A stretch of DNA of 64,000 bases from a virus (IMGVR_UViG_3300044678_001935:35982-99981), one strand, 5' to 3'. Numbered from the stretch's first letter, positions 43,896-62,661 are shown. Notes: generated by a model not told the origin, from the sequence alone. A program made the numbers and translations.

Positions 43896-44295
43896 AAATA
43901 AATTTTGGGACCTTGAATCTAATCTAAATGAGATTGAATCCAATTATTTGGATCTTGAAGAGCAGTTAGCACATTTTGTTACAGATTCGCTTCTACTTAT
44001 TGAAAACTTAGATCTTGAATCTTTGGCAATACCAATATTCGCTCAGAGTCTTATTATTCGTAATTACCGAGATTACAAATATCAAGATTTATTAAAAAAA
44101 TTACTGGTATCTAAAAATTTCACACCAGGCCTAATATACCGCACAAGAGAAATTTTTACAGAAAAAGAGTTTGAACCTTTTTTACAATACTTACTACAAA
44201 ATCCAAATTTAGACCAGTATGCAAGAGAATACTACACCAACCTAAAAAAATCTTATGACCGAAGACTTACTAGGGAACAAACTAAAAAAGCTTGA
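43876..44295 (+). CDS. hypothetical protein
   Basis: 139-aa ORF. Confidence 0.35.
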   Translation: METHEIENKFWDLESNLNEIESNYLDLEEQLAHFVTDSLLLIENLDLESLAIPIFAQSLIIRNYRDYKYQDLLKKLLVSKNFTPGLIYRTREIFTEKEFEPFLQYLLQNPNLDQYAREYYTNLKKSYDRRLTREQTKKA

Positions 44296-45025
44296 GCAAC
44301 TGGAGGCTGGGCGTTATGCCGATCCTTTTCTTCCACTCATGGCCAGAATTGATGGTAAGTGCTTCAGTAATTTCACTAGAAGTCTAAAACGTCCTTATGA
44401 CGAGAGATTTATTCGGCTTATGATAGCAACGACAAAATATCTTGTTGAAGAAAGTGAGGCTATTTTAGGTTATTGCCAATCTGATGAAATTACTCTTTAT
44501 TGGTACTTAGATAAAGAAAACTTTTCCAATAGAGAATTCTGGTTTCGTGGTAAGTTTCAGAAATTAACTTCTGTCTTAGCCTCAACTGCTAGCTCTTATT
44601 TTTGTGGTAATCTCGCACATTATTTACCAGAAAAGACTGGTAACTATCCAACCTTTGATACAAGAGTTTGGAGTGTTCCCGATTTGGAATGCGTTTATGA
44701 GAATTTTCTATGGCGGTTTAAGGATGCGAGAAAAAATTCTGTATCCATGTATGCAAGACATTTCTTTTCACCAAACCAGCTTTTTAAAAAGTCCTGTGAA
44801 GAAATGAAAGAAATGTTAGCGGTTATTCGTAGGCCGTGGGAAGAATTACCTAAATTCTTTACCGATGGGACGTATATTAAAAGACAAAAATTCTTATTGT
44901 CTCCTTATGATCCTAGATGGAATGACGTTCCCTCTCAATACCGGCCAACAAAACCTGTTGAGCGTACATTGGTTTCCGTTTGGGAACCAGAGACAACGGT
45001 ATCACTTGATTGGTTCACTTATTAA
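44255..45025 (+). CDS. Thg1-like protein (tRNA-His guanylyltransferase family 3'-5' nucleotidyltransferase)
   Basis: MARIDGKCFSNF..KRPYDERFIRLM aligns with the Thg1 region VRLDGRNFHRF..KPNDSRALQLM. GYCQSDEITLYW aligns with AYGQSDEYSFVF, SVLASTASSYF with HVASQFASSY, and the C-terminal FDTRVWSVPD...ENFLWRFKDARKNSVSMYARHFF with FDGRVVVYPS..LSWRQADCHINNLYNTVFW. Confidence 0.75.
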   Translation: MTEDLLGNKLKKLEQLEAGRYADPFLPLMARIDGKCFSNFTRSLKRPYDERFIRLMIATTKYLVEESEAILGYCQSDEITLYWYLDKENFSNREFWFRGKFQKLTSVLASTASSYFCGNLAHYLPEKTGNYPTFDTRVWSVPDLECVYENFLWRFKDARKNSVSMYARHFFSPNQLFKKSCEEMKEMLAVIRRPWEELPKFFTDGTYIKRQKFLLSPYDPRWNDVPSQYRPTKPVERTLVSVWEPETTVSLDWFTY

Positions 45026-48140: not shown

Positions 48141-48207
48141 TTAAATTTCTTAAGATGGTTCAGCAATTCTCATATGTTTTGGGTACATAAAAGACCATCT
48201 TGTTTAA

Positions 48208-48322
48208 AGAGCGAGTAGCTCAGGGGTAGAGCAACGTAATAACAAATCTCGTTTGAGATTTTAACAGCAATCAAAACCGCATGTTAAGCCGTAGGCCCCA
48301 GGTTCAAATCCTGGCTCGCTCA
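48208..48322 (+). tRNA. tRNA-like gene with a roughly 42-nt insertion between the D and T arms (isotype unresolved)
   Basis: Perfect 7-bp acceptor GAGCGAG/CTCGCTC, D arm GCTC-AGGGGTA-GAGC and T arm CCAGG-TTCAAAT-CCTGG. The central region is 65 nt instead of about 23 and contains the hairpin AAATCTC-GTTT-GAGATTT (48243-48260). Confidence 0.4.
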
Positions 48323-48433
48323 TCAGATGATTCAGCAATTATCTCTTCGCTAGGAAAACAAAATCATCTAGTTAAACAATTTTATCAATTCTCAAAAAAT
48401 GTTCAATTTCGTTATTAATACTAAATAACCAAC

Positions 48434-48507
48434 AGCGGGCGAGTGTAACGGTAGTCACGTCGGGCTCATAACCCGGAGGAATATGGGTTCAATTCCCAGG
48501 TCCGCCA
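48434..48507 (+). tRNA. tRNA-Met (CAT), initiator-like
   Basis: Anticodon arm TCGGG-CTCATAA-CCCGG is the same as E. coli tRNA-fMet through its three G-C pairs. There is an A1·C72 mismatch at the acceptor end, T loop TTCAATT and acceptor 3' GTCCGCC. Confidence 0.55.
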
Positions 48508-48572
48508 TCAGATGATTCAGCAATTTCAAAACTTCTTATTGGTTAGAAAAACAAAAATCATCTAGTCTTATT

Positions 48573-48693
48573 ACGAGAGTAGCCCAATTGGTTGAGGTGA
48601 GCGTAAGAAACAAAAATGATCTAGACAGATCATTCAGCAATAATACACTTTCTAAGGAACGCTTTGATGTCAGTTCAAATCTGACCTCTCGTA
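48573..48693 (+). tRNA. tRNA-like gene with a roughly 49-nt insertion in the anticodon-loop region (isotype unresolved)
   Basis: Perfect acceptor ACGAGAG/CTCTCGT and T arm GTCAG-TTCAAAT-CTGAC. A candidate anticodon stem GAGCG/CGCTT encloses 56 nt that include the hairpin AATGATCT-AGAC-AGATCATT (48614-48633). Confidence 0.35.
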
Positions 48694-50794: not shown

Positions 50795-51312
50795 CTGAAC
50801 AAGAGCAAAAACTATTAAACAAGTTTCTTTCCTCTATTGAAGAAGACGAAAAGTTCTTCAAAGAGATTATGAACCGAACAGATGAAGACGCAAGACTTCT
50901 TCAATGGATTGTCAATAATAATATCAATCCTTACGGTGTTTTTCCTTATTATATTGCTGGCAGTCTTTCCGAATTACAATCCTTTGTTGCCATCTACATT
51001 AAGATGACGTATCAAAGAAAGCACTGTGAAATTAATTACGTCAACGTTGAAAGAACAAGTAGCTCACATGATCATGTTGATAACCTAGGACCGAGAGTAG
51101 TTTTTGTTGGTAAATGGGAAGATGATTTTCATGCGCTAGTTAAAAAAGAATTAAATCTACCCGACGATGAGCTACCATGGGAATCATACACTTATGACTT
51201 TGACATCTTAGAAAACGTAGACGCCTTTATTGAAACATACAATAGGGTTGAAGATTATCACAAGAATCGTTATGAAGAAAACAGTAAGCTTGCGGATAGG
51301 TGGTTATCATGA
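50791..51312 (+). CDS. hypothetical protein
   Basis: 173-aa ORF whose stop TGA overlaps the lysS ATG (ATGA). Confidence 0.4.
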
Positions 51313-52787
51313 ATGAAGAAACATCACAATTTTTATCAGCCAGGTTGGATAAGATTTCAGAACTACAGAAAATAGGGCAAGTTGCATATGCTAATTCTTT
51401 TCACCCTACAATTAAAGCATTAGAATTACATAAGAATTATTTTAATCTGGAAAATGGTTCTGAATGTGATGATAATGTTGTTATAGCTGGTCGTATTATC
51501 GCAAGAAGAGTATTCGGTAAGTTGTCATTTTTTACTCTTTCCGATGACAGTGGAACAATTCAGCTTTATATTGAGAACGCCATCGTTGGTTCCGATATTG
51601 TTTCCTTAACCGATGTCGGCGACTGGATCGGCGCCACCGGCACCCTGCGGCGCACCGACCGGGGCGAGCTTTCGGTCAAGGTGCGCGACTGGACGATGCT
51701 CAGCAAGTCGCTTCAGCCCCTGCCCGACAAGTGGCATGGCCTGGCGGACGTGGAGAAGCGCTACCGGCAGCGCTATCTCGATCTGATCGTCTCCCCCCAC
51801 ACCCGCGAAACTTTCCGGCGACGTGCCATTTTGATTAGAACTATTCGCAATTGGCTTGACTCGCGGGAATTTTTGGAGATTGAAACTCCTATTCTACAAA
51901 CCGAAGTTGGCGGAGCCGAGGCCAAACCTTTCTCAACATATCATAACACTCTAGATCTATCATTAACTCTAAGAATTGCGACCGAGTTGCACCTTAAGAG
52001 GATGATTGTTGGTGGTTTTGAAAGAGTTTATGAGTTGGGTCGTATATTTCGTAATGAAGGTCTAAGCACCCGCCATAATCCAGAGTTTACAACCGTTGAG
52101 ATTTATCAGGCATATGCAGATTATAATGATATGATGATTTTAACAGAAAATCTCATATCTACTTGCGCAGAGACAGTTTGTGGTTCTACTGTAATAGTTT
52201 ATCAAGATGAAAAAATTGATCTAACTCCTCCTTGGAATAAATGTACAATGCACGAATTGGTTTTTGAGCATACTGGTCTTGATTTTCATCAATTTTCGTC
52301 AAGAACCGATGCCGCTAATGCTATGGAAACTATTGGATTGGTTGTTCCTGATAGTGCCGATTCCGTTGGTCGGTTATTAAACGAAGCCTTTGAACAAAGA
52401 GTTGAAAAACAGCTCATTCAACCGACTTTTGTTTTAGATTATCCTGTTGAAATTTCTCCACTGGCCCGTTCTCATAGAGAAAAACCGGAATTGGTTGAAA
52501 GATTTGAATTATTCATCTTTGGTCGTGAAATTGCCAATGCCTTTAGCGAACTCACCGATCCTTTAGAACAGAGAAAAAGATTAGAAGAACAACAAACCCG
52601 CCGCAATAATGGCGATCAAGAGGCTCACACTATTGATGAAGACTTTTTAAACGCACTTGAAATTGGAATGCCGCCAACCGGAGGACTAGGTATTGGTATA
52701 GACAGATTGACAATGTTACTTACGGATAGTCCGTCTATTCGTGATGTTATCGCTTTTCCTTTAATGCGCCCAGAGGACAAAACATGA
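51309..52787 (+). CDS. lysS: lysyl-tRNA synthetase (class II)
   Basis: N-terminal OB anticodon-binding region ([23 protein letters not shown]), motif 2 [23 protein letters not shown] and motif 3 [18 protein letters not shown] at 51309; the track lists a GTG at 51300. Confidence 0.85.
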
Positions 52788-53017
52788 ATGAAGAAACACT
52801 AACAATTGAAAATTTTATTCGTCTTCTCAAATCTCACATAAAAACCAATCACTATAAGTACAGCGATTCTTTTGAAACAGTAGTCAAAGATCTTATTGAA
52901 CAAATTTCAGATACAGCAGAAGAAAAAGGTTATCGTAATGGTTATTCTGCTGGTTATGATGCCGGACAATACGATAAAAAGCAAGAACTTATTGAAAATC
53001 TGAGGACTATGTTATGA
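52784..53017 (+). CDS. small hypothetical protein
   Basis: 77-aa ORF with ATGA overlap to lysS. Confidence 0.3.
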
Positions 53018-53185
53018 AAACAAAAATACTCATTGGATTTACAGTAGGGCTTATTCTTAGTTTTATTGGTATATTTACATCAGACTTAATGTGCATGTGG
53101 ATTGGTGGTTTGTTTGTTGGTGGGAATATTTCAATTCTTAGTTTAGTAAAATGCCAAAAAATTATTATGAAAGAGGAGAACTGTA

Positions 53186-53428
53186 ATGAGTAAACTTACA
53201 ATTAATGAAGAAGAATTCTTTGATAAAGAAGGAGCACTTAAAACAGTAGTTGAATATCTTCAAAAAATGTTAAACGAAGGTTGGAAAGATGTTGTTTGTG
53301 AGGGGACGCTTTACCGATCTAGGGAAGAAAACGATGATGAATACGCAGATCGTCTTGCTATAGAAGCACGAGAAAAAGAACGGCGCCGCAAACAGTACGA
53401 AAAACTAAGAAAAGAATTTGAGGAATGA
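53186..53428 (+). CDS. small hypothetical protein
   Basis: 80-aa ORF with AGGAG upstream. Confidence 0.35.
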   Translation: MSKLTINEEEFFDKEGALKTVVEYLQKMLNEGWKDVVCEGTLYRSREENDDEYADRLAIEAREKERRRKQYEKLRKEFEE

Positions 53429-53655
53429 TTATGAGAGCAACAGTTTATAAGGCAGTCTTGTGTATTGTTGATCATGAAGATATGCCAGAAGAATCCGTTA
53501 TTCATCTTTTAGAAAATGTTCGTTATCTTTATCCGAACATTATTAGTCTAGAATCACGAGAGATTGAAGAGTGGAATGATGAACATCCATTAAACAAAAA
53601 AGACACACATACTCAAGAATTTGGAAGATTATTCAATGGCATTCATTCAAAATAA
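53425..53655 (+). CDS. small hypothetical protein
   Basis: 76-aa ORF. Confidence 0.3.
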   Translation: MIMRATVYKAVLCIVDHEDMPEESVIHLLENVRYLYPNIISLESREIEEWNDEHPLNKKDTHTQEFGRLFNGIHSK

Positions 53656-54091
53656 AAACATTCTAACGCTTCATGATAACGAAATCTTCGTCTTTGGAAG
53701 CAACCGCGCTGGCATTCATGGAGCAGGAGCCGCTCTGCACGCCGCAAGATACTTTAAGGCTGTCCACGGGGTCGGTGAGGGCCTTACAGGGTTCTCCTAC
53801 GCACTACCAACAAAGCGAGCCAACTTTACCATCTGCTCTCTGGATGAGATTTCTTGGTCATTAAAATGTTTAAAAGAGTGTGCTAAAGAAAATCATATGT
53901 TCACTTTCTTCTTAACGAGAATCGGGCAGGGTTATGCAGGAATTCCAGAGAAAGATATTAAGAATCTGGTTATAAAAACCGATTTGCCTGATAATGTTCT
54001 TCCTTGGTGGATATGGGAGAATGCTTTTGGAACTTTCACAAAGGAAAATATTAACGTAAATTTGGATATTTTGGGTGTGACAGTTGATTAA
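53621..54091 (+). CDS. hypothetical protein, tentatively macro-domain-like (ADP-ribose binding)
   Basis: FVFGSNRAGIHGAGAALHAARY resembles the macro signature NAAN..LGGGGVDGAIHRAAG. It contains a GC-rich island at 53690-53840. The assignment is tentative. Confidence 0.3.
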   Translation: MEDYSMAFIQNKNILTLHDNEIFVFGSNRAGIHGAGAALHAARYFKAVHGVGEGLTGFSYALPTKRANFTICSLDEISWSLKCLKECAKENHMFTFFLTRIGQGYAGIPEKDIKNLVIKTDLPDNVLPWWIWENAFGTFTKENINVNLDILGVTVD

Positions 54092-54156
54092 GTGGCTACC
54101 ACGAACTTCAATGATTCTGTTTTGTGCTATGATTTTCTGGTAACTTAAGAGGTTTT

Positions 54157-54381
54157 ATGTGCCCTATGGATGAACTTGATCTGTATTTTGAACAAATTTG
54201 GGAGAAGCACAAGCCTTCAAAAAAACTTCCTGTAGAGTTTGAGAAAAATCTTAAACAGTCTTTTATGTCTGCTGCTCGTGAAGTGTGGAAAAAAAGCCTA
54301 GAACATGATAGAGAACGAATGATTCAGGAATTTCCTGATTTCGTCAAAGAACGATATTTTCATACAGGCCCAGTTGCATAA
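54157..54381 (+). CDS. small hypothetical protein
   Basis: 74-aa ORF. Confidence 0.3.
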   Translation: MCPMDELDLYFEQIWEKHKPSKKLPVEFEKNLKQSFMSAAREVWKKSLEHDRERMIQEFPDFVKERYFHTGPVA

Positions 54382-54842
54382 TAAAAACAAATTATTACGA
54401 TAACATTCTTCTAAATTTATGAACTTTGATTTTTTAGAACGACAACCAAAAATTATTCAAGAGTTTTTATTATTTTTTGTTGAAATTTATTTTGGATTTA
54501 CCATAAAATGTAATATGGCATTTTTCTTATGGCGCTATATTATGACTCATGATATTGATGTATTAAAAAAACATGTTTTGGATTAACTACATTTAATGAC
54601 TTTTATGCTACACTTAATGGAGGATGGAGAGGCGCCAAATAAAAAAGTGTAAAATCTGTAAACAAACTAGGACAACCTCTTGTTACGCCAGGTGTTTGAA
54701 TTCCCGGAACAAACATTAATACAAAAGATTTTGTTTATACCTAATCAACTTGGTGTTGTGCCAATTGGAAACGTGTCCACTAATCCATCTTATATCCAGT
54801 AAATCTGCTACTATACAAGGAGTTAAAACAAATGGGTGAACT

Positions 54843-55010
54843 ATGAAACGTTTATTATCTTTTCTCTGGTCTGGCTGTTGGCATGAATGGGTAGATGAAA
54901 AACGGGAAGCTGTTACTTTTGTGAGTGATTATTCGCCGGATGTTTCTGGTTATAGAGTATTTCAGAAGTGCAAAAAATGTGGTGATACGCGGGTCAAAAG
55001 GCTTATGTAA
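54843..55010 (+). CDS. small Cys/His-containing protein (not in the ORF track; 55 aa)
   Basis: ATG preceded by AGGAG. Encodes ..SGCWHEW..CKKCGD.., a possible zinc-binding motif. Confidence 0.3.
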   Translation: MKRLLSFLWSGCWHEWVDEKREAVTFVSDYSPDVSGYRVFQKCKKCGDTRVKRLM

Positions 55011-55033
55011 GTTATCGCTAAATAACAATTCAC

Positions 55034-55105
55034 CTGGAAATAAGTCAGTGGTAGACGGTCTAGTTTGGGGCTAGAAAGACGTTGGTTCGAGTCCAACTTT
55101 TCAGA
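55034..55105 (+). tRNA. tRNA-Pro (TGG)
   Basis: Acceptor CTGGAAA/TTTTCAG, D arm AGTC-AGTGGTA-GACG, anticodon arm TCTAG-TTTGGGG-CTAGA (U33, anticodon TGG, G37) and T arm GTTGG-TTCGAGT-CCAAC. Confidence 0.55.
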
Positions 55106-55175
55106 TTTGGGATAATCCCCAAAACAAATTGGAGATAGACTCCGATTTTTAAACTATTCTAAGGAGCTTAGAACA

Positions 55176-56234
55176 ATGAAAAAATACGATGCGGTGGTTT
55201 TCATCGGCAGGTTTCAACCTTTCCATAACGCTCATTTTGATATTATCAAAAAAGCTTATGAGCTAACTGATTATGTAATTCTTATCGCGGGTTCTCAGTA
55301 TCAACCACCTAGCTATAAGAATCCATTTCAGGCTTTAACTTTTGACGGTTATTTTGATTCAATTGGAAAAACCATTGATAATTATCTTAGAGTTAACTTT
55401 GAGGATTATTATGACGAAGACCGTAACTATGAGTTCTCGTTTTGTTTTCAACGAGATATTTACGGTGATAATCTCTGGTGCAAAAGTGTACAGGAAAAAG
55501 TATCAGAATTATTCTTAGGTCAAGAAGCTGAAATAGCCATTATTGGTTGTAATAAGGATGAAAGTTCTTATTACTTAAATATGTTCCCTCAGTGGGATCT
55601 TATTGAGGTTCCTCTGGATCAAAACCTTAGTGCTACACAGATCAGAGAACTTTATTTCGTTGAAGAACCAAATATGAGTTTTCTTCAAGGTGTTGTATCG
55701 TCTGAGGTTTTTAATTATCTTGACGAACACAAAAATACCGAATGGCACAATAATATCGTAAACGAACGAAATTTTATTGAAAAATACAAAGCCCAATATG
55801 CTTCTTTCCCATATCCACCAACATTCGTTACTGTAGATTCTGTAGTATTTCAATCCGGTCATGTTCTCGTTGTTCGGAGAAATGCTTATCCTGGTAAAGG
55901 TCTTATTGCTCTTCCTGGTGGATTCTTAGACGCTAATAGTGATGCCTCTTTGGAAGATGCTATGATTAGAGAACTGAGAGAGGAAACAGGGCTTAAAGTG
56001 CCAACTCCGGTTCTCAAGGGATCTATTAAAGATGTTAAAGTTTTTGATTCTCTTTATAGAAGCTCTCGTGGACGGACTATTACTCATGCTCATAACATTG
56101 TATTGTCTGATGGAGAACTACCTAGAGTCAAAGGTGATTCTGATGCTGATAAGGCTTTCTGGTTACCATTCAGCCAACTTAAATCAGAGCAATTTTTTGA
56201 AGACCATTATCAAATTATCAATTATTTTCTATGA
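55176..56234 (+). CDS. natV: bifunctional NMN adenylyltransferase / Nudix hydrolase (NadM-Nudix, NatV-like)
   Basis: N-terminal GRFQPFHNAH (the H/TxGH nucleotidyltransferase motif) and a C-terminal Nudix box GGFLDANSDASLEDAMIRELREETGL. Confidence 0.8.
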   Translation: MKKYDAVVFIGRFQPFHNAHFDIIKKAYELTDYVILIAGSQYQPPSYKNPFQALTFDGYFDSIGKTIDNYLRVNFEDYYDEDRNYEFSFCFQRDIYGDNLWCKSVQEKVSELFLGQEAEIAIIGCNKDESSYYLNMFPQWDLIEVPLDQNLSATQIRELYFVEEPNMSFLQGVVSSEVFNYLDEHKNTEWHNNIVNERNFIEKYKAQYASFPYPPTFVTVDSVVFQSGHVLVVRRNAYPGKGLIALPGGFLDANSDASLEDAMIRELREETGLKVPTPVLKGSIKDVKVFDSLYRSSRGRTITHAHNIVLSDGELPRVKGDSDADKAFWLPFSQLKSEQFFEDHYQIINYFL

Positions 56235-56431
56235 TTATGAATCAAGTGCAACTGAGTAAAATGTCAAGAGAAGAAAAACTTAAGGCATTGGCTTTAATTG
56301 ATAAAAACATTGAGACAACAAAACTTAAATTAAGCCAATTACATCATGAAGCCTATAAGTTGCAATATGAATTAGGTTATTACGCTAAAAAAGAAATCCT
56401 TTATGGAATTAAATATGATGTTCAAAATTAA
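56231..56431 (+). CDS. small hypothetical protein
   Basis: 66-aa ORF with ATGA overlap to natV. Confidence 0.3.
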   Translation: MIMNQVQLSKMSREEKLKALALIDKNIETTKLKLSQLHHEAYKLQYELGYYAKKEILYGIKYDVQN

Positions 56432-56951
56432 TAAAAATCGAAACTTCCTAGAAGACTATAAGAAATATTATTTCTTTTATGATACTCCATTGTCAAATTG
56501 GGCAGGTTATTCTTTTGTTGATACAACAACTGGAGTTTCTTACAATTGCTCAGAACAGTTTATGATGCACAAGAAGGCCCTACTTTTTTCTGATTATAAT
56601 ACTGCCGGCAAGATCATGAATAAAGAATACCCAGGAGATCAAAAAGCCTTGGGTAGAATGGTGGCAGGCTTTGATGTTAGCATTTGGAATGAATATGCAA
56701 GAGATCTTGTGTATGAAGGATGTTATTATAAGTTTACCCAAAATAAGGAAGCTTATGAATATCTTATGGGGACAGAAGGTTATCTTCTAGTAGAGGCATC
56801 ACCAACAGATACTATTTGGGGTATTGGACTTGGAGGTTATGATGCAGATAATCAAGATCCTAAAAATTGGAGAGGAACTAACTGGTTGGGTGAAGTTCTT
56901 ACACAACTACGAGAAGATTTGAAAGATAACCCAGAGTTAGTTTTATTCTAG
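56403..56951 (+). CDS. NADAR (DUF1768, YbiA-like) domain protein
   Basis: ..NCSEQFMMHKKALLF..KALGRMV..WNEYARDLVYEGCYYKFTQNKEAYEYLMGTEGYLLVEASPTDTIWGIGLGG matches the NADAR pattern (EH....K......LGR...W......M......KF.QN..L...LL.T...L.E.SP.D..WG.G). Confidence 0.65.
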   Translation: MELNMMFKINKNRNFLEDYKKYYFFYDTPLSNWAGYSFVDTTTGVSYNCSEQFMMHKKALLFSDYNTAGKIMNKEYPGDQKALGRMVAGFDVSIWNEYARDLVYEGCYYKFTQNKEAYEYLMGTEGYLLVEASPTDTIWGIGLGGYDADNQDPKNWRGTNWLGEVLTQLREDLKDNPELVLF

Positions 56952-57027
56952 TCAGATGTAAAGACTTTAAAACATAATTCAACGATAGACGTTGAATTTT
57001 ATCCACTATCATTTTAAGGAGTTTAAA

Positions 57028-59343
57028 ATGGACAACATTATTCTTTCTGCTGATTCTTACAAATACTCTCAGTTCAATCAATATCCTCCACAAACAGAGG
57101 GTGTTTATTCTTACATTGAGAGTCGCGGTGGTGGAGAAGAAGTTCTCTTTATGGGTCTTCAGATCTATCTTAAGGAATATCTATCTCGTCCCATTCGCAT
57201 GGAAGATATTGACGAAGCAGAGGAACTTATTCTCGCTCACGGAGAACCTTTTTATCGTGGCGGGTGGGAATACATCGTTAAGAAGCATGGTGGTTATCTA
57301 CCCGTAAGAGTAAAAGCCGTTCCAGAAGGAATGGTGATTCCAACGAAAAATGTTTTGGTTACGATTGAGAATACAGATCCAAACTGCTATTGGCTGACAA
57401 GTTTTCTAGAGACAAGTCTTCTTCGGCATGTTTGGTTTCCAACAACGGTTGCGACGAATTCTTATAACATCAAGAAGCTTATTTTGAGTTACTTGATTCG
57501 TAATGGAGATCCCAATACGATTGATTATAAGCTACATGACTTTGCATTTCGAGGTGTGTCTTCTTCTGAATCTGCCGGAATCGGTGGTATTGCACACCTT
57601 GTTAATTTCAAGGGAACTGATACAGTTGCCGCTCTTCGTTATGGTAGAAAATATTATAACGAAAAAATGGCAGGCTACTCGGTCCCAGCTTCAGAACATG
57701 GTGGAATCACGAGTTGGGGTAAAGAAAACGAAGTAGCGGCATATAGAAATATGCTTAATCATTATGCTAAGCCTGGTGCTATCGTCGCTTGTGTAAGTGA
57801 CAGTTATGACATTTATAACGCTTGCGATAAGCTCTGGGGTGAGGAGTTAAAGGATGAAGTTATTGCTTCTGGTGCTACTCTGACGGTCAGGCCGGATTGT
57901 TATGATGATCAAACTAAGATTTTAACTCCTAGTGGGTGGAAATTATTTTGTGAATTATCGGAAAACGATCTGGTTGCCCAGGTTAATCCCGATAAAACTT
58001 ATGAATTTGTCAAACCTCTTGAAATTATTAATGAATATTATGAAGGAGAAATGTATCAAATTCGGGATTTTCACGGAAAAATTGATCTCTTAGTCACTCC
58101 TAATCATAGATTAGTGGTTGTAGATAGAGCTGGTGAACTTATAGTAAAAGAAGCCAAAGATTATAACCCAAAAAATTTGAATTACCGAAAACTTCGTTCG
58201 GCTAAGGCCAAAACTTTTGGGAAAAATTTAACCTGGCACGAAAGACTATTAATCGCATTACAGGCTGATGGTACTATTAGAAAAACGACCTCCAATAAGA
58301 CGAGTATTGAATTCAATTTTCAAAAAGAGCGAAAGCATAATAGATTATTAAATATTCTTAATAATTTAAATTATGAGTATAGTGTCTTTTATAGTGAGTC
58401 TAGGGAGGGCCAATCAATTATAACCGTGTCAATACCATTGGGTGAAATTGTTTCTAAAACATTTGATTGGGTTGATATTTCAAACTTGGATAGTCAATGG
58501 TGTGAGCAATTTATAGATGAATTAAAACATTGGGATTCTTCTATTAGAAATAGTGGAAGATTTAAATATGATACTACAGTTAAATTTAACATAGACGTAG
58601 TAGAATATATTGCCATTTCTTCAGGGAAAGGGATTTTAATTTCCGTCGCCGAAGATAATAGACAATCTTATTATTCTGATGTTTATACTGCACATATATT
58701 GGATAATCCTTATTCTGGTGGTCAGACCATAACCAAAACAAAAGTTAATTATAAAGGAAGTGTACATTGTGTTAAAGTTCCGAGTGGTATGGTTTTAGTT
58801 AAAAGACACCGGGGAGTTTCTGTTTCTGGAAATTCTGGAGAACCTGTAGAAGTGAATCTTAAGTGTGCTCAAATTCTTGAAAGTCATTATGGATCTACCG
58901 TAAACTCTAAAGGATTTAAGGTACTCAATAACGTCAAGCTCATTCAGGGTGATGGTGTTAATTATGAAACTGTAGATCGGGTTCTTCATGTACTTGAATC
59001 TAACGGATATAGTAGTGATAACATTGGTTTCGGAATGGGTGGCGCCCTGCTCCAGGCTGTTACTCGTGATGATTACAAATTTGCCATGAAGTGTAGTGCG
59101 GTTAATGTGGCTGGAAATTGGAGGGATGTTTACAAGGATCCTATTACAGATCCAGGTAAAACATCTAAGAAAGGTCGTCTGAATCTGATTCATACCGATA
59201 ATGGTTACGAAACGGTTCCTGAACGCCCATGGAATAAAGATGTTCTTGAGGTTGTTTATGAGAATGGAGAACTTCTAAAGGATTATACTTTGGAAGAAAT
59301 CCGAGTGAACGCAAATCGGTGTATTCATAATTACTTCGCATAA
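57028..59343 (+). CDS. nadV: nicotinamide phosphoribosyltransferase NadV, interrupted by an intein
   Basis: N-terminus MDNIILSADSYKYSQFNQYPP is NAMPT-like and has a TAAGGAG RBS. The extein aligns with NAMPT on both sides of a 312-aa insertion between RPD and SGEP (human RPDSGNP), and NSKGFKVL..LIQGDGV matches NSKGYKLL..VIQGDGV. Confidence 0.8.
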   Translation: MDNIILSADSYKYSQFNQYPPQTEGVYSYIESRGGGEEVLFMGLQIYLKEYLSRPIRMEDIDEAEELILAHGEPFYRGGWEYIVKKHGGYLPVRVKAVPEGMVIPTKNVLVTIENTDPNCYWLTSFLETSLLRHVWFPTTVATNSYNIKKLILSYLIRNGDPNTIDYKLHDFAFRGVSSSESAGIGGIAHLVNFKGTDTVAALRYGRKYYNEKMAGYSVPASEHGGITSWGKENEVAAYRNMLNHYAKPGAIVACVSDSYDIYNACDKLWGEELKDEVIASGATLTVRPDCYDDQTKILTPSGWKLFCELSENDLVAQVNPDKTYEFVKPLEIINEYYEGEMYQIRDFHGKIDLLVTPNHRLVVVDRAGELIVKEAKDYNPKNLNYRKLRSAKAKTFGKNLTWHERLLIALQADGTIRKTTSNKTSIEFNFQKERKHNRLLNILNNLNYEYSVFYSESREGQSIITVSIPLGEIVSKTFDWVDISNLDSQWCEQFIDELKHWDSSIRNSGRFKYDTTVKFNIDVVEYIAISSGKGILISVAEDNRQSYYSDVYTAHILDNPYSGGQTITKTKVNYKGSVHCVKVPSGMVLVKRHRGVSVSGNSGEPVEVNLKCAQILESHYGSTVNSKGFKVLNNVKLIQGDGVNYETVDRVLHVLESNGYSSDNIGFGMGGALLQAVTRDDYKFAMKCSAVNVAGNWRDVYKDPITDPGKTSKKGRLNLIHTDNGYETVPERPWNKDVLEVVYENGELLKDYTLEEIRVNANRCIHNYFA
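57898..58833 (+). mobile_element. intein (312 aa) with a LAGLIDADG-like motif, in-frame within nadV
   Basis: Begins with Cys (CYDDQTKILTPSGW) and has block B LVTPNHRL. The LAGLIDADG-like motif is LLIALQADGTIRK. It ends ..VSVSGN followed by an extein Ser, and it sits in the conserved PRPP-binding RPDSG site. Confidence 0.65.
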
Positions 59344-59348
59344 GGAGT

Positions 59349-59379
59349 GTGCCAGCCTAAAAACTGGCACTTTCTTTTT
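59349..59379 (+). terminator. rho-independent terminator GTGCCAG-CCTAAAAA-CTGGCAC followed by TTTCTTTTT
   Basis: Perfect 7-bp stem, 8-nt loop and a T-rich tail immediately after the nadV stop. Confidence 0.6.
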
Positions 59380-59428
59380 ACGGTCGTCACATAAGGCATC
59401 TATAGTTGTTTGGTCAGACTCTCTTTTT

Positions 59429-59905
59429 ATGAAACGTCCTCAGGTAAAAACCTCTACGTTTAAGGAAATTCGTCCAATCACAAAATTGGATGATATTCCA
59501 CGTATAAAGCAATTTAATTTTTTTCATAAAAAAGGAGTAAAATGTGTTAAATGTGGTTGTGAGGGAAAGTTTATTGTTAAAGATAACCTTAATAGACGCA
59601 AAATTTGTACAGAAAATTACATTAGTTTGAGTAGGGATCATATTATTCCAATCTCTAAAGGTGGGTCCAACGTAATAAAAAATATGCAGACGATGTGTGA
59701 ATATTGTAATGGTTTAAAGGGTACCATGAATAATGAGATTTTTATGTCTATACCAAATTTCTTTTTAGACGATGCTTTTAAATGTGACCGGAGCAAAAGT
59801 TTTAAAGTGTTTATTCTTCTATTAAGAGTTATGGCAAAATTTTATAGGACTAAAACCAGGATTTACTCAAGAATGAAAAATCTGCACTCACAAACTCTAA
59901 CCTAA
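59429..59905 (+). CDS. HNH endonuclease (free-standing)
   Basis: CVKCGCEG..C..RDHIIPISKGGSNVIKNMQTMCEYCNGLKG carries the HNH core with its flanking Cys pairs. Confidence 0.7.
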   Translation: MKRPQVKTSTFKEIRPITKLDDIPRIKQFNFFHKKGVKCVKCGCEGKFIVKDNLNRRKICTENYISLSRDHIIPISKGGSNVIKNMQTMCEYCNGLKGTMNNEIFMSIPNFFLDDAFKCDRSKSFKVFILLLRVMAKFYRTKTRIYSRMKNLHSQTLT

Positions 59906-59926
59906 AAGTAACAATTCTTAACCGTT

Positions 59927-60205
59927 ATGATCAAACTGAATGAAATCACCGTCAAGGTTACGTTTAACATTAACAAATATATTGATTATTGTTGGGACCA
60001 AAGAATCATACCATCGCAAGATAATTATAGAGAGTGGGTTATTCAGCAAATGTCTGATTGTAGTGAAGACGAACTCAAAGTTACCTACTCTAAAAAGCAG
60101 CAAATCTTTAATAACAATAAGGTGGAATTTGTTTGTTTGAATGACAAATTGGCTAAAAGGCTAAAGCGGGGCCACCAATTATTCAAGAAAAAAATGGAAA
60201 GATAA
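59927..60205 (+). CDS. hypothetical protein
   Basis: 92-aa ORF. Confidence 0.35.
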   Translation: MIKLNEITVKVTFNINKYIDYCWDQRIIPSQDNYREWVIQQMSDCSEDELKVTYSKKQQIFNNNKVEFVCLNDKLAKRLKRGHQLFKKKMER

Positions 60206-60360
60206 AACTCTATGGTGAATTTTTTGAGCCTATACTTAATTCCACTGACACACAAATAGGAGTGGTTGTTCAGAATAAAAAAAGCGAATCCTTGAGGCAT
60301 CATTGGGATTTAGATAAAATCTTTATTCTAAAAAGTTCTATTAAACCCTGAGCCATAACT

Positions 60361-61710
60361 ATGTCATTGTTTCTAACAGATACTCTAACAAAAGAAAAAA
60401 GGGAATTCGTTCCACTAGAAAATAACACTGTCAACATATACTCCTGTGGTGTGACCGTTTATGATCTAACACACTTTGGTCATGCTCGCAGTTTTATAGT
60501 TTGGGATGTTCTTCGTAGACACCTAAAATGGCTTGGATATGCTGTTAAATTTGTTCAGAACTATACCGATATTGATGATAAAATTATTGCAAAAGCCAAT
60601 GAACAGAATCAAACAATCAAAGAAATAACAGAAAAGTACATTAACGAGTATGAGAAAGATATGACCTTTCTTAATGTTATGTTGCCGGATAAGATGCCTA
60701 GAGCCACAGATCATTTATCCGAAATTCGCAGTATGATTAAAACTCTAGAATCTAAAGGTGCTGCATATACTTTAGATGGTAGTGTTTATTTTTCTGTTAA
60801 TACTCATGAGAATTATGGTAGATTATCTGGAAGAATTTTAGACAATCAAAAAGATAACTCAGGTGAATTTCTTAAAAAGAATTCTTTTGATTTCGCATTA
60901 TGGAAAGCTTCTAAACCAGGTGAACCGAGTTATTCTTCTTATTGGGGAAATGGTAGACCGGGATGGCATATAGAATGTTCGGCGATGATCTGGAAGGAAT
61001 TTGGAAAGACTATTGATATCCATCTTGGGGGTTCTGATCTGATTTTTCCACATCATGAGAATGAAATAGCCCAAACTGAAGTTGCAACAGAAAATCAATT
61101 ATCTCGTTGGTGGTTACATTCTGGAATGGTAATGGTTGATGGTAAAAAAATGAGCAAGTCTCTAGGAAACTTTACAACCATTCGGTCCTTACAAGAATCA
61201 GGATTTAGTCCAATGGCCATAAGGCTTTTCGTATTACAGGGGCATTATCGCAAACCTCTTGATTTTACGGAAAATGCTTTAAAAATGGCAACGAATTCCT
61301 GGAATAAATTAAATGAAGTTTTGTTGTTAAAATCTTCAAAAGAAACTACCGAAATTGATTTTGATGATAAGCTAAGATCTTATCACAATAATTTTATAGA
61401 TGCTCTTAACGACGATCTCAATACTTCTCTTGCAATCTCAGTTCTTTTTGTTTTGGTTAAAGAAATAAGAGTGAATAACTCAGACTCTTATATTTTACTT
61501 TTGTGCGAATTATCAGCAATTCTTGGTCTTTTTGGAGAGCAAAAGTCCAATATAAGCGAATCAGAAATTTTAGAACAAATTGAATTAAGAAATTCAGCAA
61601 GAAAAGAAAAGAATTTTACTCTTGCGGATGAGATCAGAGAAAAATTATTAACTTCTGGTGTTAAACTTGAAGATACAAAAGACGGAACTAGTTTTAATTT
61701 TATTGTGTGA
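60361..61710 (+). CDS. cysS: cysteinyl-tRNA synthetase (class I)
   Basis: HIGH-type motif THFGHARS, zinc ligands CGVTVYD and WHIECSAM, the KMSKS motif GKKMSKSLGNF, and overall collinearity with bacterial CysRS (NYTDIDDKII, PRATDHL, FPHHENEIAQ). Confidence 0.85.
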   Translation: MSLFLTDTLTKEKREFVPLENNTVNIYSCGVTVYDLTHFGHARSFIVWDVLRRHLKWLGYAVKFVQNYTDIDDKIIAKANEQNQTIKEITEKYINEYEKDMTFLNVMLPDKMPRATDHLSEIRSMIKTLESKGAAYTLDGSVYFSVNTHENYGRLSGRILDNQKDNSGEFLKKNSFDFALWKASKPGEPSYSSYWGNGRPGWHIECSAMIWKEFGKTIDIHLGGSDLIFPHHENEIAQTEVATENQLSRWWLHSGMVMVDGKKMSKSLGNFTTIRSLQESGFSPMAIRLFVLQGHYRKPLDFTENALKMATNSWNKLNEVLLLKSSKETTEIDFDDKLRSYHNNFIDALNDDLNTSLAISVLFVLVKEIRVNNSDSYILLLCELSAILGLFGEQKSNISESEILEQIELRNSARKEKNFTLADEIREKLLTSGVKLEDTKDGTSFNFIV

Positions 61711-61785: not shown

Positions 61786-62661
61786 ATGATCATTAAAGCA
61801 CCACTTCTCGCAGGAAACTTTGACCCAGCAAAGGCAAGATACCCTTATATTGCCACACAAAAGATTGATGGAATTCGTTTCCTAATGGTTTCCGGTGTAG
61901 CTGTATCTCGCACATTCAAACCAATTCGTAATAAACACATTCAATCTCTTTTGTCTCAATACTTACCAGACGGTATTGACGGTGAATTAACTTCTGGTAA
62001 TAATTTTCAAGACTCTACGTCTGCTATTATGAGAATTGAAGGAGAGCCTGAATTTAAGGTTTGGGTCTTTGATTATGTTAATCCGAAGTCTCCTGATATT
62101 CTGCCATATTATTTGAGAATGCTACAACTTGGAGATATTAATATTTCTCAAGAACTTAATTATGAAAAATTGTTAGGTACTAATATTAAAACCGAAGACG
62201 ATCTTGTTGCTATTGATAAGATTTATCTTGAATCTGGATATGAAGGCACAATGCTTCGTGATCCAAATGGTACTTATAAATTTGGAAGATCTACCGTAAA
62301 CGAAAACATTCTTCTTAAGGTAAAACACTTTATTGATGACGAAGGATTACTTGTTAATGTTCATGAGAAAATGAGCAATCAGAACGAATTAGGTGTTGAT
62401 GAACTCGGACACGCTAAAAGATCTTCTGCTCTAGATGGAATGGTTCCAATGGACACTGCTGGTAGCTTGGTTGTCAATGGATCTTATGGTGAAGTTAAAA
62501 TTGGTAGTGGTTTAGATGATAAATTGAGAGAATATATCTGGGCCAATAAAGAAAAACTGATTGGTAAGACCTACGTGAAATATAAGTTCTTTCCTCATGG
62601 TGTTAAGAATCTTCCGCGCCATCCAGTTTTCATTGGATTTCGTGACCCTGATGATATGTGA
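61786..62661 (+). CDS. ATP-dependent DNA ligase (minimal T7/Chlorella-virus type)
   Basis: Motif I KIDGIR, motif III IDGEL, motif IV YEGTMLRDPNGTYKFGRS and motif V ILLKVKHF in the canonical order. Confidence 0.75.
   Translation: MIIKAPLLAGNFDPAKARYPYIATQKIDGIRFLMVSGVAVSRTFKPIRNKHIQSLLSQYLPDGIDGELTSGNNFQDSTSAIMRIEGEPEFKVWVFDYVNPKSPDILPYYLRMLQLGDINISQELNYEKLLGTNIKTEDDLVAIDKIYLESGYEGTMLRDPNGTYKFGRSTVNENILLKVKHFIDDEGLLVNVHEKMSNQNELGVDELGHAKRSSALDGMVPMDTAGSLVVNGSYGEVKIGSGLDDKLREYIWANKEKLIGKTYVKYKFFPHGVKNLPRHPVFIGFRDPDDM

What the first reader, a model, noticed from the sequence alone, without database searches (positions are those of the whole stretch)
51309..61710. Two aminoacyl-tRNA synthetases (LysRS and CysRS) encoded by a T4-like phage
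A class II LysRS (51309-52787, motifs 2 and 3 intact) and a class I CysRS (60361-61710, HIGH and KMSKS motifs plus zinc ligands) lie about 8 kb apart. aaRS genes are very rare in phage genomes. Together with the tRNA cluster, the Thg1-like protein and the CDA-fold deaminase they form a translation-apparatus module. They might buffer codon-usage mismatch or resist host defences that deplete or cleave specific tRNAs. tRNA-Lys is the classic target of anticodon nucleases such as PrrC.
Basis: partly seen in the sequence, partly recalled or inferred. Interest (0 to 1): 0.8.

Follow-up and report, generated by a model that had tools for sequence, protein, structure and literature searches.

The report
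Cyanophage carrying host-derived LysRS and CysRS
A large T4-like virus of freshwater picocyanobacteria carries two intact tRNA-charging enzymes (for lysine and cysteine) taken from its host lineage and kept under selection; this is a new example of something already known from very large phages.

Summary
51309-52787 encodes a full-length class II LysRS and 60361-61710 a full-length class I CysRS. Both score above the curated equivalog cut-offs and have all catalytic motifs and zinc ligands.

The window is a T4-like cyanomyovirus. Its closest cultured relatives are the freshwater Synechococcus phages B3/B23 (Kyanoviridae, about 244 kb), which lack both genes. No cultured cyanophage in the phage collection has either gene.

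This is neither host contamination nor gene decay:
- The same gene order recurs on about eight independent metagenome contigs.
- GC is phage-like: 42% and 33%, against about 64-70% for host lysS.
- dN/dS between strains is 0.06 (LysRS) and 0.10 (CysRS).

Both enzymes are closest to picocyanobacterial ones: LysRS 67-72% identity, CysRS 51-53%.

Lysine is the amino acid most over-used by the phage relative to high-GC Cyanobium: 6.9% against 1.25%, or 5.5-fold. That supports a charging-capacity role for LysRS. It does not explain CysRS, where the ratio is 1.26-fold.

A defence role involving PrrC-type tRNA cleavage has no support. The "translation module" is a loose, strain-variable accessory region. 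The "tRNA cluster" includes tRNA-like RNAs beside a Ro60-like protein.

aaRS genes are already known in phages over 200 kb, so this is a new member of a known kind.

The parts
51309..52787 (+). Class II lysyl-tRNA synthetase (LysRS), 492 aa. It is translationally coupled to its neighbours by ATGA overlaps at both ends.
   Evidence: GC 42.1%, GC3 35%. dN/dS 0.059 against strain L018.
51308..51323 (+). Left copy of an exact 16-bp direct repeat, CATGAATGAAGAAACA, that brackets the LysRS ORF
   Evidence: Only two copies in the window. The repeat is conserved in five other contigs of two strain types.
52783..52798 (+). Right copy of the 16-bp direct repeat. It makes the downstream 77-aa ORF start with MNEET, like LysRS.
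60361..61710 (+). Class I cysteinyl-tRNA synthetase (CysRS), 449 aa
   Evidence: GC 33.3%, GC3 24%. dN/dS 0.10 against L018. Phage-specific deletions after residues 168 and 375.
59429..59905 (+). HNH endonuclease ORF. It lies just upstream of CysRS in both strain types.
   Evidence: PF14279/PF01844. The linkage is kept in L018/L019/L020.
54084..59344 (+). Strain-variable 5.26-kb block separating the two aaRS genes: tRNA-Pro(TGG) 55034-55105, NMNAT-Nudix 55176-56234, NADAR 56403-56951, and NAMPT 56992-59343 carrying an intein. This is context, not part of the aaRS function.
   Evidence: Absent at this place in L018/L019/L020. Pfam. Intein.
48434..48507 (+). tRNA-Met(CAT) (context)
44255..45025 (+). 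Thg1-like protein (context; tRNA 5'-end repair or maturation family)
   Evidence: PF04446, 94 bits
46677..48140 (+). Ro60-like (TROVE plus vWA fold) protein, Pfam DUF2828/DUF7788 (context)
48151..48693 (+). Non-coding RNA cluster: two tRNA-like RNAs with an anticodon-arm insert of about 53 nt (48209-48322 and 48573-48693), plus hairpins sharing the motif (T)CAGCAAT (context)

Best explanation
The window comes from a roughly 244-kb T4-like cyanomyovirus of freshwater picocyanobacteria (Cyanobium/Synechococcus group). It carries two functional aminoacyl-tRNA synthetase genes of picocyanobacterial ancestry. They appear to have been captured at different times. CysRS looks older: about 52% identity to hosts, GC3 fully phage-like, and shared with other large cyanophage-like contigs. 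LysRS looks more recent: about 70% identity, GC3 still slightly raised, and bracketed by a 16-bp direct repeat.

Both genes sit in co-directional phage gene arrays and are presumably expressed with them during infection. The enzymes would then add charging capacity for tRNA-Lys and tRNA-Cys.

For LysRS the likely benefit is quantitative. An AT-rich phage proteome (6.9% Lys, mostly AAA codons) has to be made in a high-GC host whose proteome, and so its Lys-tRNA charging capacity, is set for about 1-2% Lys.

For CysRS the benefit is not explained by demand. It may be to keep a low-abundance host activity going after host shut-off, or it may be a non-canonical role.

What is shown and what is inferred:
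- Shown: the identity, intactness, phage context, origin and purifying selection of both genes.
- Inferred: expression, aminoacylation activity, the host, and the fitness benefit.
For: Identity and motifs.

Phage context:
- PHROG tail, baseplate, gp5-like hub and gp32-like SSB hits.
- Best protein matches are Kyanoviridae phages B3/B23, at 54%.
- The same gene order recurs on JGI, ENA and Logan contigs from about eight samples, including scaffolds of 244 kb and 217 kb.

Not host DNA:
- Gene GC is 42% and 33%, against a mean of 64% for host lysS (66-70% in freshwater Cyanobium).
- ATGA start/stop overlaps join LysRS to phage ORFs.

Origin:
- All named top hits are picocyanobacteria.
- In the NJ tree, phage plus picocyanobacterial LysRS group in 200/200 bootstraps, to the exclusion of Gloeobacterales and plastid LysRS (58% and 57% identity). 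All other lineages are at 51% or less.

Selection: 37 synonymous against 8 non-synonymous differences for LysRS, and 10 against 4 for CysRS, between strain types.

Demand: Lys has the largest phage/host usage ratio of all 20 amino acids, 5.5-fold. AAA is 46 per 1000 codons in the phage against 1.8 in the host.

Related phages boost Lys decoding in another way. B3 and one CysRS-bearing contig (L011) encode tRNA-Lys(UUU).

Precedent: huge phages encode host-related aaRS (PMC7162821; PMC13359090).
Against: - No expression or activity data exist.
- The host is inferred, not known. The host amino-acid estimate rests on 119 ORFs next to lysS in 15 freshwater picocyanobacterial genomes or MAGs, filtered on GC3. 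A lower-GC host would shrink the ratio.
- Asn is over-used almost as much (5.3-fold), yet no AsnRS lies in the window.
- Cys usage is only 1.26-fold, so the demand logic does not cover CysRS.
- The closest cultured relatives, B3/B23, replicate without either gene.
- The NJ trees place the phage LysRS outside the crown picocyanobacteria (196/200). That could be an old capture or a long-branch artefact, so the exact donor is not resolved.
- The two phage CysRS clades do not group in NJ (0/200), although they share indels.
Confidence: 0.6

Rival explanations
1. The segment is host (cyanobacterial) DNA, mis-assembled into or contaminating a phage contig.
For: The closest homologues are cellular picocyanobacterial enzymes. 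Many 'phage' database records with aaRS hits are evidently host contamination: unannotated, UNVERIFIED_ORG or bacterial WGS records.
Against: - GC and GC3 are phage-like, not 64-70% as in the host.
- Identity to any cellular protein is at most 72% (LysRS) or 53% (CysRS).
- The same phage flanks recur on about eight independent assemblies.
- Start and stop codons overlap those of phage ORFs.
Confidence: 0.01
2. The genes are decaying passengers (pseudogenes in the making) with no function for the phage.
For: The closest cultured relatives lack them. The region is hyperplastic and varies between strains.
Against: - Both ORFs are full length with every catalytic motif.
- dN/dS is 0.06 and 0.10.
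- LysRS is retained in a relative only 76% identical, with the same neighbouring gene sizes.
- CysRS is retained in three divergent phage-like lineages.
Confidence: 0.03
3. Counter-defence. The phage enzymes replace or shield host LysRS and CysRS (or their tRNAs) when a host immunity or toxin system inactivates them.
For: The neighbourhood is rich in RNA repair and quality-control genes and in plausible counter-defence genes: Thg1-like, Ro60-like with tRNA-mimic RNAs, and an NAD+ salvage block. Phage tRNAs are reported to evade tRNA-targeting immunity (reference cited in PMC13359090).
Against: - A synthetase cannot repair a cleaved anticodon loop. T4 uses a kinase-phosphatase and an RNA ligase for that (established knowledge).
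- I know of no defence system that targets LysRS or CysRS.
- No tRNA-Lys gene lies next to LysRS.
- Nothing in the sequences points to inhibitor resistance.
Confidence: 0.12
4. Dedicated charging of phage-encoded tRNAs. The phage aaRS co-evolved with phage tRNA-Lys and tRNA-Cys variants that host enzymes charge poorly.
For: Al-Shayeb et al. propose this for huge phages. The relative B3 encodes tRNA-Lys(UUU) and tRNA-Cys(GCA). The phage CysRS clades share deletions in the helical region leading into the anticodon-binding domain.
Against: No tRNA-Lys or tRNA-Cys was found in the 64-kb window or in 10 kb downstream in the sister strain. B3 has those tRNAs without the synthetases. The rest of the genome could not be inspected.
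Confidence: 0.12
5. Non-canonical enzyme roles. LysRS would act as an Ap4A (alarmone) synthase, and CysRS as a cysteine persulfide synthase, remodelling host physiology rather than translation.
For: Both side activities are documented for bacterial LysU and CysRS (established knowledge, not tested here). The demand argument fails for CysRS. A Nudix-domain enzyme lies between the two genes in this strain.
Against: Both proteins keep complete tRNA anticodon-binding domains (PF01336; DALR_2) under purifying selection. That is unnecessary for those side reactions. The Nudix block is absent in sister strains.
Confidence: 0.08

Closest known systems
aaRS genes of huge/jumbo phages (Al-Shayeb et al. 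2020, Nature 578:425; PMC7162821)
   Same: The phage genome is over 200 kb. It carries full-length aaRS related to, but distinct from, those of the host phylum, alongside tRNAs and tRNA-processing genes. The proposed role is support or redirection of translation.
   Different: Here the carrier is a T4-like cyanomyovirus (Kyanoviridae-related), not one of the described huge-phage clades. Only two aaRS were seen in the 64 kb examined. For LysRS there is a specific quantitative rationale, the Lys usage mismatch.
Synechococcus phages B3 and B23 (MN695334/5; Kyanoviridae; PMC7171214)
   Same: They are the closest cultured relatives: about 54-64% amino-acid identity in gp32, a tail protein and the Ro60-like protein. 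The gene order is collinear, the genome is about 244 kb at 34.8% GC, and they are freshwater phages with a Synechococcus-Cyanobium host. They share the NMNAT/NAMPT genes and the long tRNA-like RNA beside the Ro60-like gene.
   Different: B3/B23 have neither LysRS nor CysRS. They carry 14-16 tRNAs, including tRNA-Lys(UUU) and tRNA-Cys(GCA), next to NAMPT. Their NAMPT has no intein.
Picocyanobacterial LysS and CysS (Cyanobium, Vulcanococcus, Synechococcus, low-light Prochlorococcus)
   Same: They have the same domain architecture, and all catalytic and zinc-binding residues are conserved. They are the closest sequence relatives: 67-72% for LysRS and 51-53% for CysRS.
   Different: - The phage genes have 33-42% GC, against 54-70%.
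- The phage LysRS has a replaced N-terminus, MNEET.
- The phage CysRS lacks 7-8 residues after position 168 and 13-18 residues after position 375. All 111 picocyanobacterial sequences compared have these residues.
aaRS of giant eukaryotic viruses (Mimiviridae and relatives; PMC11304981)
   Same: Large DNA viruses with AT-rich genomes carry a few aaRS. One proposed explanation is a codon or amino-acid usage mismatch with the host.
   Different: The virus realm and hosts are unrelated, and the acquisitions were independent and from eukaryotes. The resemblance is in logic, not in ancestry.

Membership tests
Bacterial class II lysyl-tRNA synthetase (LysS; TIGR00499) | N-terminal OB-fold anticodon-binding domain | tested here: met
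   PF01336, 57 bits, residues 57-131
Bacterial class II lysyl-tRNA synthetase (LysS; TIGR00499) | Class II catalytic core with motifs 1, 2 and 3 | tested here: met
   PF00152, 303 bits. FRNEG..HNPEF and GGLGIGIDR align to 3A74 and are invariant across 11 sequences.
Bacterial class II lysyl-tRNA synthetase (LysS; TIGR00499) | Scores above the curated equivalog cut-off, and is not a paralogue (EpmA/GenX, LysX) | tested here: met
   TIGR00499 scores 639 against a cut-off of 428. genX (240 < 287) and LysX (555 < 742) fall below their cut-offs.
Bacterial class II lysyl-tRNA synthetase (LysS; TIGR00499) | Charges tRNA-Lys with lysine | not testable with these tools
   Needs an aminoacylation assay or complementation.
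Class I cysteinyl-tRNA synthetase (CysS; TIGR00435) | Rossmann-fold core with HIGH and KMSKS signatures | tested here: met
   HFGH 38-41 and KMSKS 263-267, aligned to 1LI5. PF01406, 408 bits.
Class I cysteinyl-tRNA synthetase (CysS; TIGR00435) | Zinc ligands of the cysteine-binding site (E. coli C28, C209, H234, E238) | tested here: met
   C29, C206, H231 and E235 lie at the aligned positions and are invariant in alignment A2.
Class I cysteinyl-tRNA synthetase (CysS; TIGR00435) | C-terminal DALR-type anticodon-binding domain; scores above the equivalog cut-off; not MshC | tested here: met
   DALR_2, 39 bits. TIGR00435 scores 522 against a cut-off of 340. MshC, at 291, is below its cut-off of 485.
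Class I cysteinyl-tRNA synthetase (CysS; TIGR00435) | Charges tRNA-Cys with cysteine | not testable with these tools
   Needs biochemistry. The phage-specific deletions lie outside the catalytic core.
T4-like cyanomyovirus (Kyanoviridae) | T4-type replication and baseplate/tail genes, most similar to cyanomyoviruses | tested here: met
   PHROG hits to a gp32-like SSB, a gp5-like hub and tail fibres. Best tblastn hits are B3/B23 (Kyanoviridae), followed by other Synechococcus and Prochlorococcus myoviruses.
T4-like cyanomyovirus (Kyanoviridae) | Hallmark capsid, terminase and portal phylogeny | not tested
   These genes are not in the 64-kb window.
Host-derived auxiliary gene resident in a phage genome | Phylogenetic affinity to the host lineage, together with phage-like composition and conserved phage flanks | tested here: met
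   origin; composition; flanks.
Ro60/TROVE-Y RNA module (side observation) | TROVE-type helical ring plus a vWA domain | tested here: met
   AF2 model with pLDDT 75. The top 9 Foldseek PDB hits are all Ro60/TROVE, E 1e-7 to 2e-4, TM 0.30-0.46. There is no sequence-level TROVE hit.
Ro60/TROVE-Y RNA module (side observation) | An adjacent non-coding RNA with a Ro-binding stem and a tRNA-like domain (YrlA type) | tested here: inconclusive
   tRNA-like RNAs with long inserts lie next to the gene here and in B3, with compensatory changes. The Rfam YrlA model scores only 17.5 bits against a cut-off of 69, and the element order is tRNA-like, not permuted.

The most novel reading that the evidence does not exclude
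Amino-acid usage mismatch, and not only codon or tRNA mismatch, may shape the translation genes that AT-rich viruses of GC-rich hosts acquire. On this reading the cyanophage LysRS is a demand-driven auxiliary gene that relieves a Lys-tRNA charging bottleneck. The widespread, indel-marked cyanophage CysRS family would then be a virus-adapted enzyme with an altered or additional role. If so, aaRS content of phages could be predicted from phage/host proteome composition, and this could be tested in a culturable B3-like system.
Probability: 0.3. Interest if true: 0.6.

Novelty: new member of a known kind. Interest (0 to 1): 0.45.

Why it matters
Cyanomyoviruses are the best-studied model for host-derived auxiliary genes such as those for photosynthesis, carbon and phosphate metabolism. 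Intact, selected aaRS genes would extend that repertoire to tRNA charging. They would also link the 'huge phage translation genes' literature to a lineage with cultured relatives (B3/B23) and culturable hosts.

The 5.5-fold lysine over-use gives a concrete, testable reason for which synthetase a virus acquires.

Practically, the case shows that aaRS hits in phage databases need checks of genomic context and base composition. Most such hits in the phage collection searched here looked like host contamination.

Tried and rejected
- Megablast of the 11-kb region against the phage collection: no match.
- IMG/VR scans with LysRS, as a single sequence and as an alignment: no confirmed locus. So the spread of LysRS among viral contigs could not be measured.
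- Walking the genome beyond the window to find tRNA-Lys or tRNA-Cys: assemblies break in the LRV repeats downstream, and the first window ORF has no exact record.
- Search for an 'empty site' lacking LysRS: the flanking ORFs (173 aa and 77 aa) have no homologue in cultured phages.
- Promoter and terminator scans: counts were at chance level and uninformative.
- A first bootstrap run with Biopython NJ timed out. It was redone with a numpy NJ.
- Considered and rejected: EpmA/GenX, LysX and MshC paralogue identities; host contamination; pseudogenes.
- The Rfam YrlA model does not recognise the tRNA-like RNAs (17.5 bits). Sequence searches do not link DUF2828 to TROVE; only the fold comparison does.

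Full report
**Observation**

ORF 51309-52787 (+, 492 aa) has the OB-fold anticodon-binding domain (PF01336) and the class II D/K/N catalytic core (PF00152, 303 bits). It scores 639 bits on the NCBIfam equivalog lysS_bact, against a cut-off of 428. The paralogue models EpmA/GenX and LysX fall below their cut-offs. The protein aligns over its whole length with the solved Geobacillus LysRS 3A74 (539 bits), and motifs 2 and 3 are intact.

ORF 60361-61710 (+, 449 aa) has the class I CysRS catalytic domain (408 bits) and the DALR_2 domain. It scores 522 bits on the cysS equivalog, against a cut-off of 340. MshC falls below its cut-off. Aligned to E. coli CysRS 1LI5, it shows:
- HFGH at 38-41, the HIGH signature;
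- KMSKS at 263-267;
- C29, C206, H231 and E235 at the positions of the four zinc ligands.

The two genes are 7,573 bp apart.

**What the window is**

Large ORFs upstream hit phage tail, baseplate-hub/lysozyme, tail-fibre, helicase and gp32-type SSB families. GC is 34-39% throughout.

The SSB and a tail protein find their best matches, at 54% identity, in Synechococcus phages B3 and B23. Other Synechococcus and Prochlorococcus myoviruses follow.

B3 and B23 belong to the Kyanoviridae. Their genomes are 244.9 and 243.6 kb with 34.8% GC. They were isolated from a subarctic lake on hosts of the Synechococcus-Cyanobium complex.

A sister strain of the window phage lies on scaffolds of 244,048 and 216,779 bp. 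The lineage is therefore a T4-like cyanomyovirus that also passes the 200-kb 'huge/jumbo phage' threshold.

**Not contamination, not decay**

The exact proteins, or variants 98-99% identical, occur with the same phage neighbours on JGI, ENA and Logan contigs from about eight samples.

Composition is phage-like:

| Gene | GC | GC3 |
|---|---|---|
| Phage LysRS | 42.1% | 35% |
| Phage CysRS | 33.3% | 24% |
| Window as a whole | 36.3% | – |
| Host lysS, 80 picocyanobacterial genomes (mean) | 64% | 78% |
| Host lysS, freshwater Cyanobium | 66-70% | 86-91% |

LysRS shares ATGA start/stop overlaps with both neighbouring phage ORFs.

Between the two strain types, LysRS differs at 37 synonymous and 8 non-synonymous sites (dN/dS 0.059). 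CysRS differs at 10 and 4 (dN/dS 0.10). Both genes are therefore maintained by purifying selection.

**Origin**

In the 5.8-billion-protein search, every named hit among the best 120 is picocyanobacterial:
- LysRS: Synechococcus, Cyanobium, Synechococcaceae, at 68-72% identity;
- CysRS: Vulcanococcus, Cyanobium, Synechococcus, at 51-53%.

The genome scan gave the same picture for LysRS. The nearest sequences are freshwater Cyanobium MAGs, for example from Lake Mendota. A few records carry obviously wrong organism names.

Against 50%-identity cluster representatives, the best LysRS hits are a Gloeobacterales cyanobacterium (58%) and a plant plastid-type LysRS (57%). Everything else is at 51% or less.

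Neighbour-joining trees gave these results:
- The phage LysRS sequences (window, sister strain, and a 76% relative, P0002) are monophyletic in 100-200 of 100-200 bootstraps.
- Phage plus picocyanobacteria group in 200/200, excluding Gloeobacterales and plastid sequences.
- The phage clade lies outside the 80 crown picocyanobacteria in 196/200.

That last placement may reflect an old capture, or faster and compositionally biased evolution in the phage.

P0002 sits on a contig whose neighbouring ORFs have the same sizes as those here (172 aa upstream, 77 aa downstream). This suggests LysRS predates the split of these phages.

CysRS is more diverged. It occurs in at least three phage-like lineages:
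- the window clade;
- a clade 56% identical (P0128), found on cyanophage contigs next to ribonucleotide reductase and a SegE-type endonuclease;
- a 279-kb IMG/VR contig.

NJ does not unite these lineages (0/200). However, all share a 7-8-residue deletion after residue 168 and a 13-18-residue deletion after residue 375. All 111 picocyanobacterial sequences compared have those residues. I read this as probably one old, phage-adapted CysRS family. Convergent trimming is not excluded.

**Signature of capture**

The LysRS ORF is bracketed by an exact 16-bp direct repeat, CATGAATGAAGAAACA, at 51308-51323 and 52783-52798. These are the only two copies in the window; 0.16 are expected by chance at up to two mismatches. 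The repeat is conserved in both strain types.

As a result, LysRS and the downstream 77-aa ORF both begin with MNEET. Host enzymes begin with MSELR. This looks like an insertion at the start codon of the downstream gene, with the junction duplicated. No LysRS-free 'empty site' could be found to prove it.

**How it probably works**

I compared 86 non-overlapping window ORFs with 119 ORFs flanking lysS in 15 freshwater picocyanobacterial genomes.

| Item | Phage | Host | Ratio |
|---|---|---|---|
| Lys (share of residues) | 6.90% | 1.25% | 5.5 |
| Asn | 7.34% | 1.38% | 5.3 |
| Cys | 1.03% | 0.82% | 1.26 |
| AAA codons per 1000 | 46 | 1.8 | about 25 |

Lys has the largest ratio of all 20 amino acids. 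A phage that turns a high-GC cell over to making Lys-rich proteins plausibly exhausts Lys-tRNA charging capacity, and its own LysRS would relieve that.

Relatives address the same decoding step with tRNA genes instead. B3 has tRNA-Lys(UUU), and one CysRS-bearing contig also has it.

This logic does not explain CysRS. The reason for keeping CysRS remains open, as recorded in the notebook's 'unexplained' section.

The host is inferred, and the host sample is small and filtered. The ratio is indicative, not exact.

aaRS genes are absent from all cultured cyanophage records. No Synechococcus, Prochlorococcus or Cyanophage record appears among the 48 LysRS hits or the 21 CysRS hits. Most 'phage' records that do hit appear to be host contamination or bacterial WGS entries.

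aaRS genes are, however, well documented in phages over 200 kb. Up to 15 per genome are reported, related to those of the host.

The PrrC idea is not supported. A synthetase cannot mend a cleaved tRNA, and no tRNA-Lys gene lies here.

The 'module' is loose, for three reasons:
- In sister strains the two aaRS genes are only 2.1 kb apart. The 5.26-kb block 54084-59344 (tRNA-Pro, NMNAT-Nudix, NADAR, NAMPT) is missing there.
- The CDA-fold ORF lies 10 kb upstream and only just passes its Pfam threshold.
- The whole region is interleaved with a large family of LRV-repeat ORFs.

**The 'tRNA cluster'**

Besides tRNA-Met and tRNA-Pro, Rfam's tRNA model detects two elements of 114 and 121 nt. Each has normal acceptor, D and T arms, but an insert of about 53 nt replaces the anticodon arm.

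These elements sit among hairpins that share the motif (T)CAGCAAT. They lie directly downstream of a DUF2828/DUF7788 protein.

An AlphaFold model of that protein (pLDDT 75) matches Ro60/TROVE structures. The top nine PDB hits include Xenopus Ro, Deinococcus Rsr and a Thermus phage Ro60, with E-values from 1e-7 to 2e-4 and TM-scores of 0.30-0.46.

B3 has the orthologue (64% identity), followed by a homologous 110-nt 'pseudo-tRNA'. Compensatory changes appear in its acceptor stem and in the upstream hairpin.

The 669-bp non-coding stretch is 98.7% identical between strains whose LysRS has a dS of 0.12.

This resembles a Ro-Y RNA system with tRNA mimicry. The Rfam YrlA model does not match, at 17.5 bits against a cut-off of 69.

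**Verdict**

The genes are functional-looking, host-derived and resident in the phage. The finding extends a known phenomenon, aaRS in very large phages, to a T4-like freshwater cyanophage lineage. It also offers a testable demand-based rationale for LysRS.

This is a new member of a known kind, of moderate interest.

Noticed in passing
window 46677-48140 and 48151-48693; B3 locus L108 2501-3976 and 4369-4478: A DUF2828/DUF7788 protein whose predicted fold matches Ro60/TROVE is followed by conserved tRNA-like RNAs of 114 and 121 nt. They have tRNA acceptor, D and T arms and an insert of about 53 nt in place of the anticodon arm. The same pairing occurs in phage B3, with compensatory base changes. 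This may be a phage Ro-Y RNA (tRNA-mimic) module. No paper in the library links DUF2828 to Ro.
   Followed up: partly
window 48154-48167, 48326-48339, 48511-48524, 48628-48641 (also CAGCAAT at about 48265): Four or five hairpins around and inside the tRNA-like RNAs carry the shared motif GAT(G/C)(A/G)TTCAGCAAT in the 5' arm and loop. The B3 copy shows a compensatory stem change (GATGG/CCATC to GGTGG/CCACC). This could be a protein-binding site.
   Followed up: partly
window 51308-51323 and 52783-52798: An exact 16-bp direct repeat brackets the LysRS ORF precisely. It gives LysRS and the next ORF the same first five codons (MNEET). It is probably a scar of the insertion event.
   Followed up: yes
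window 57898-58821 (within NAMPT 56992-59343): A 308-residue insertion in NAMPT has intein boundaries: it starts with Cys and ends with Asn followed by Ser. B3 NAMPT is uninterrupted at exactly this point (RPD|SG). There is only a weak Intein_splicing Pfam hit (E 0.0025).
   Followed up: partly
window 54084-59344: An NAD+ salvage block (tRNA-Pro, NMNAT-Nudix, NADAR, NAMPT) is present in this strain and absent at this position in sister strains L018/L019/L020. B3 has NMNAT and NAMPT homologues next to its tRNA cluster. From memory, the block resembles phage NAD+ reconstitution pathways that counter NAD-depleting defence. This was not tested.
   Followed up: partly
window about 31.4-33.2 kb, 34.5-35.9 kb, 39.5-40.0 kb, 41.3-42.1 kb, 45.7-46.1 kb, 62.8-64.0 kb: A heavily expanded family of small ORFs is built from 26-residue LRV (leucine-rich variant/HEAT-like) repeats (NPNTPPETLERLAND...). 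The window holds at least eight paralogues, 70-85% identical to one another at the DNA level. Metagenome assemblies break at these repeats. Function unknown.
   Followed up: no
loci L004-L007, L009-L011 (P0128-type cyanophage contigs): A second cyanophage lineage carries CysRS at a different locus, next to RNR (with an intein) and a SegE-type GIY-YIG endonuclease. It is followed by a 195-aa EF-Ts-domain protein, a 227-aa protein with a ValRS C-terminal domain, and Thg1. One contig (L011) adds tRNA-Lys, tRNA-Gly and tRNA-Met 2 kb downstream.
   Followed up: partly
window 59429-59905: An HNH endonuclease ORF stays linked immediately upstream of CysRS in both strain arrangements. The segment between HNH and CysRS (59890-60347) is replaced by unrelated sequence in the sister strain.
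   Followed up: partly
window 61786-62661: A small ATP-dependent ligase-like ORF has a KIDG motif I, a DNA_ligase_OB_2 domain and a weak DNA_ligase_A_M hit. It lies directly after CysRS in all strains. Whether it ligates DNA or RNA was not examined.
   Followed up: no
window 48434-48507: The tRNA-Met(CAT) scores low on the tRNA model (38.7 bits). It has an unpaired 1:72 position and a GGG/CCC run in the anticodon stem. These features are reminiscent of initiator tRNA.
   Followed up: no
loci L025, L030, L034, L078, L095 (genome contigs): Several MAG records named as Bifidobacterium, Bordetella, Mesorhizobium, Chitinophaga or Sulfopaludibacter carry Cyanobium-like LysRS at 70-71% identity to the phage protein. 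Their organism labels look wrong.
   Followed up: no
locus L018 17931-19673 (sister strain, downstream of the window's end): A ClpS-like ORF and a small AAA_33/KTI12-like kinase ORF lie about 7-9 kb downstream of CysRS. The kinase could be a polynucleotide-kinase-type RNA repair enzyme.
   Followed up: no
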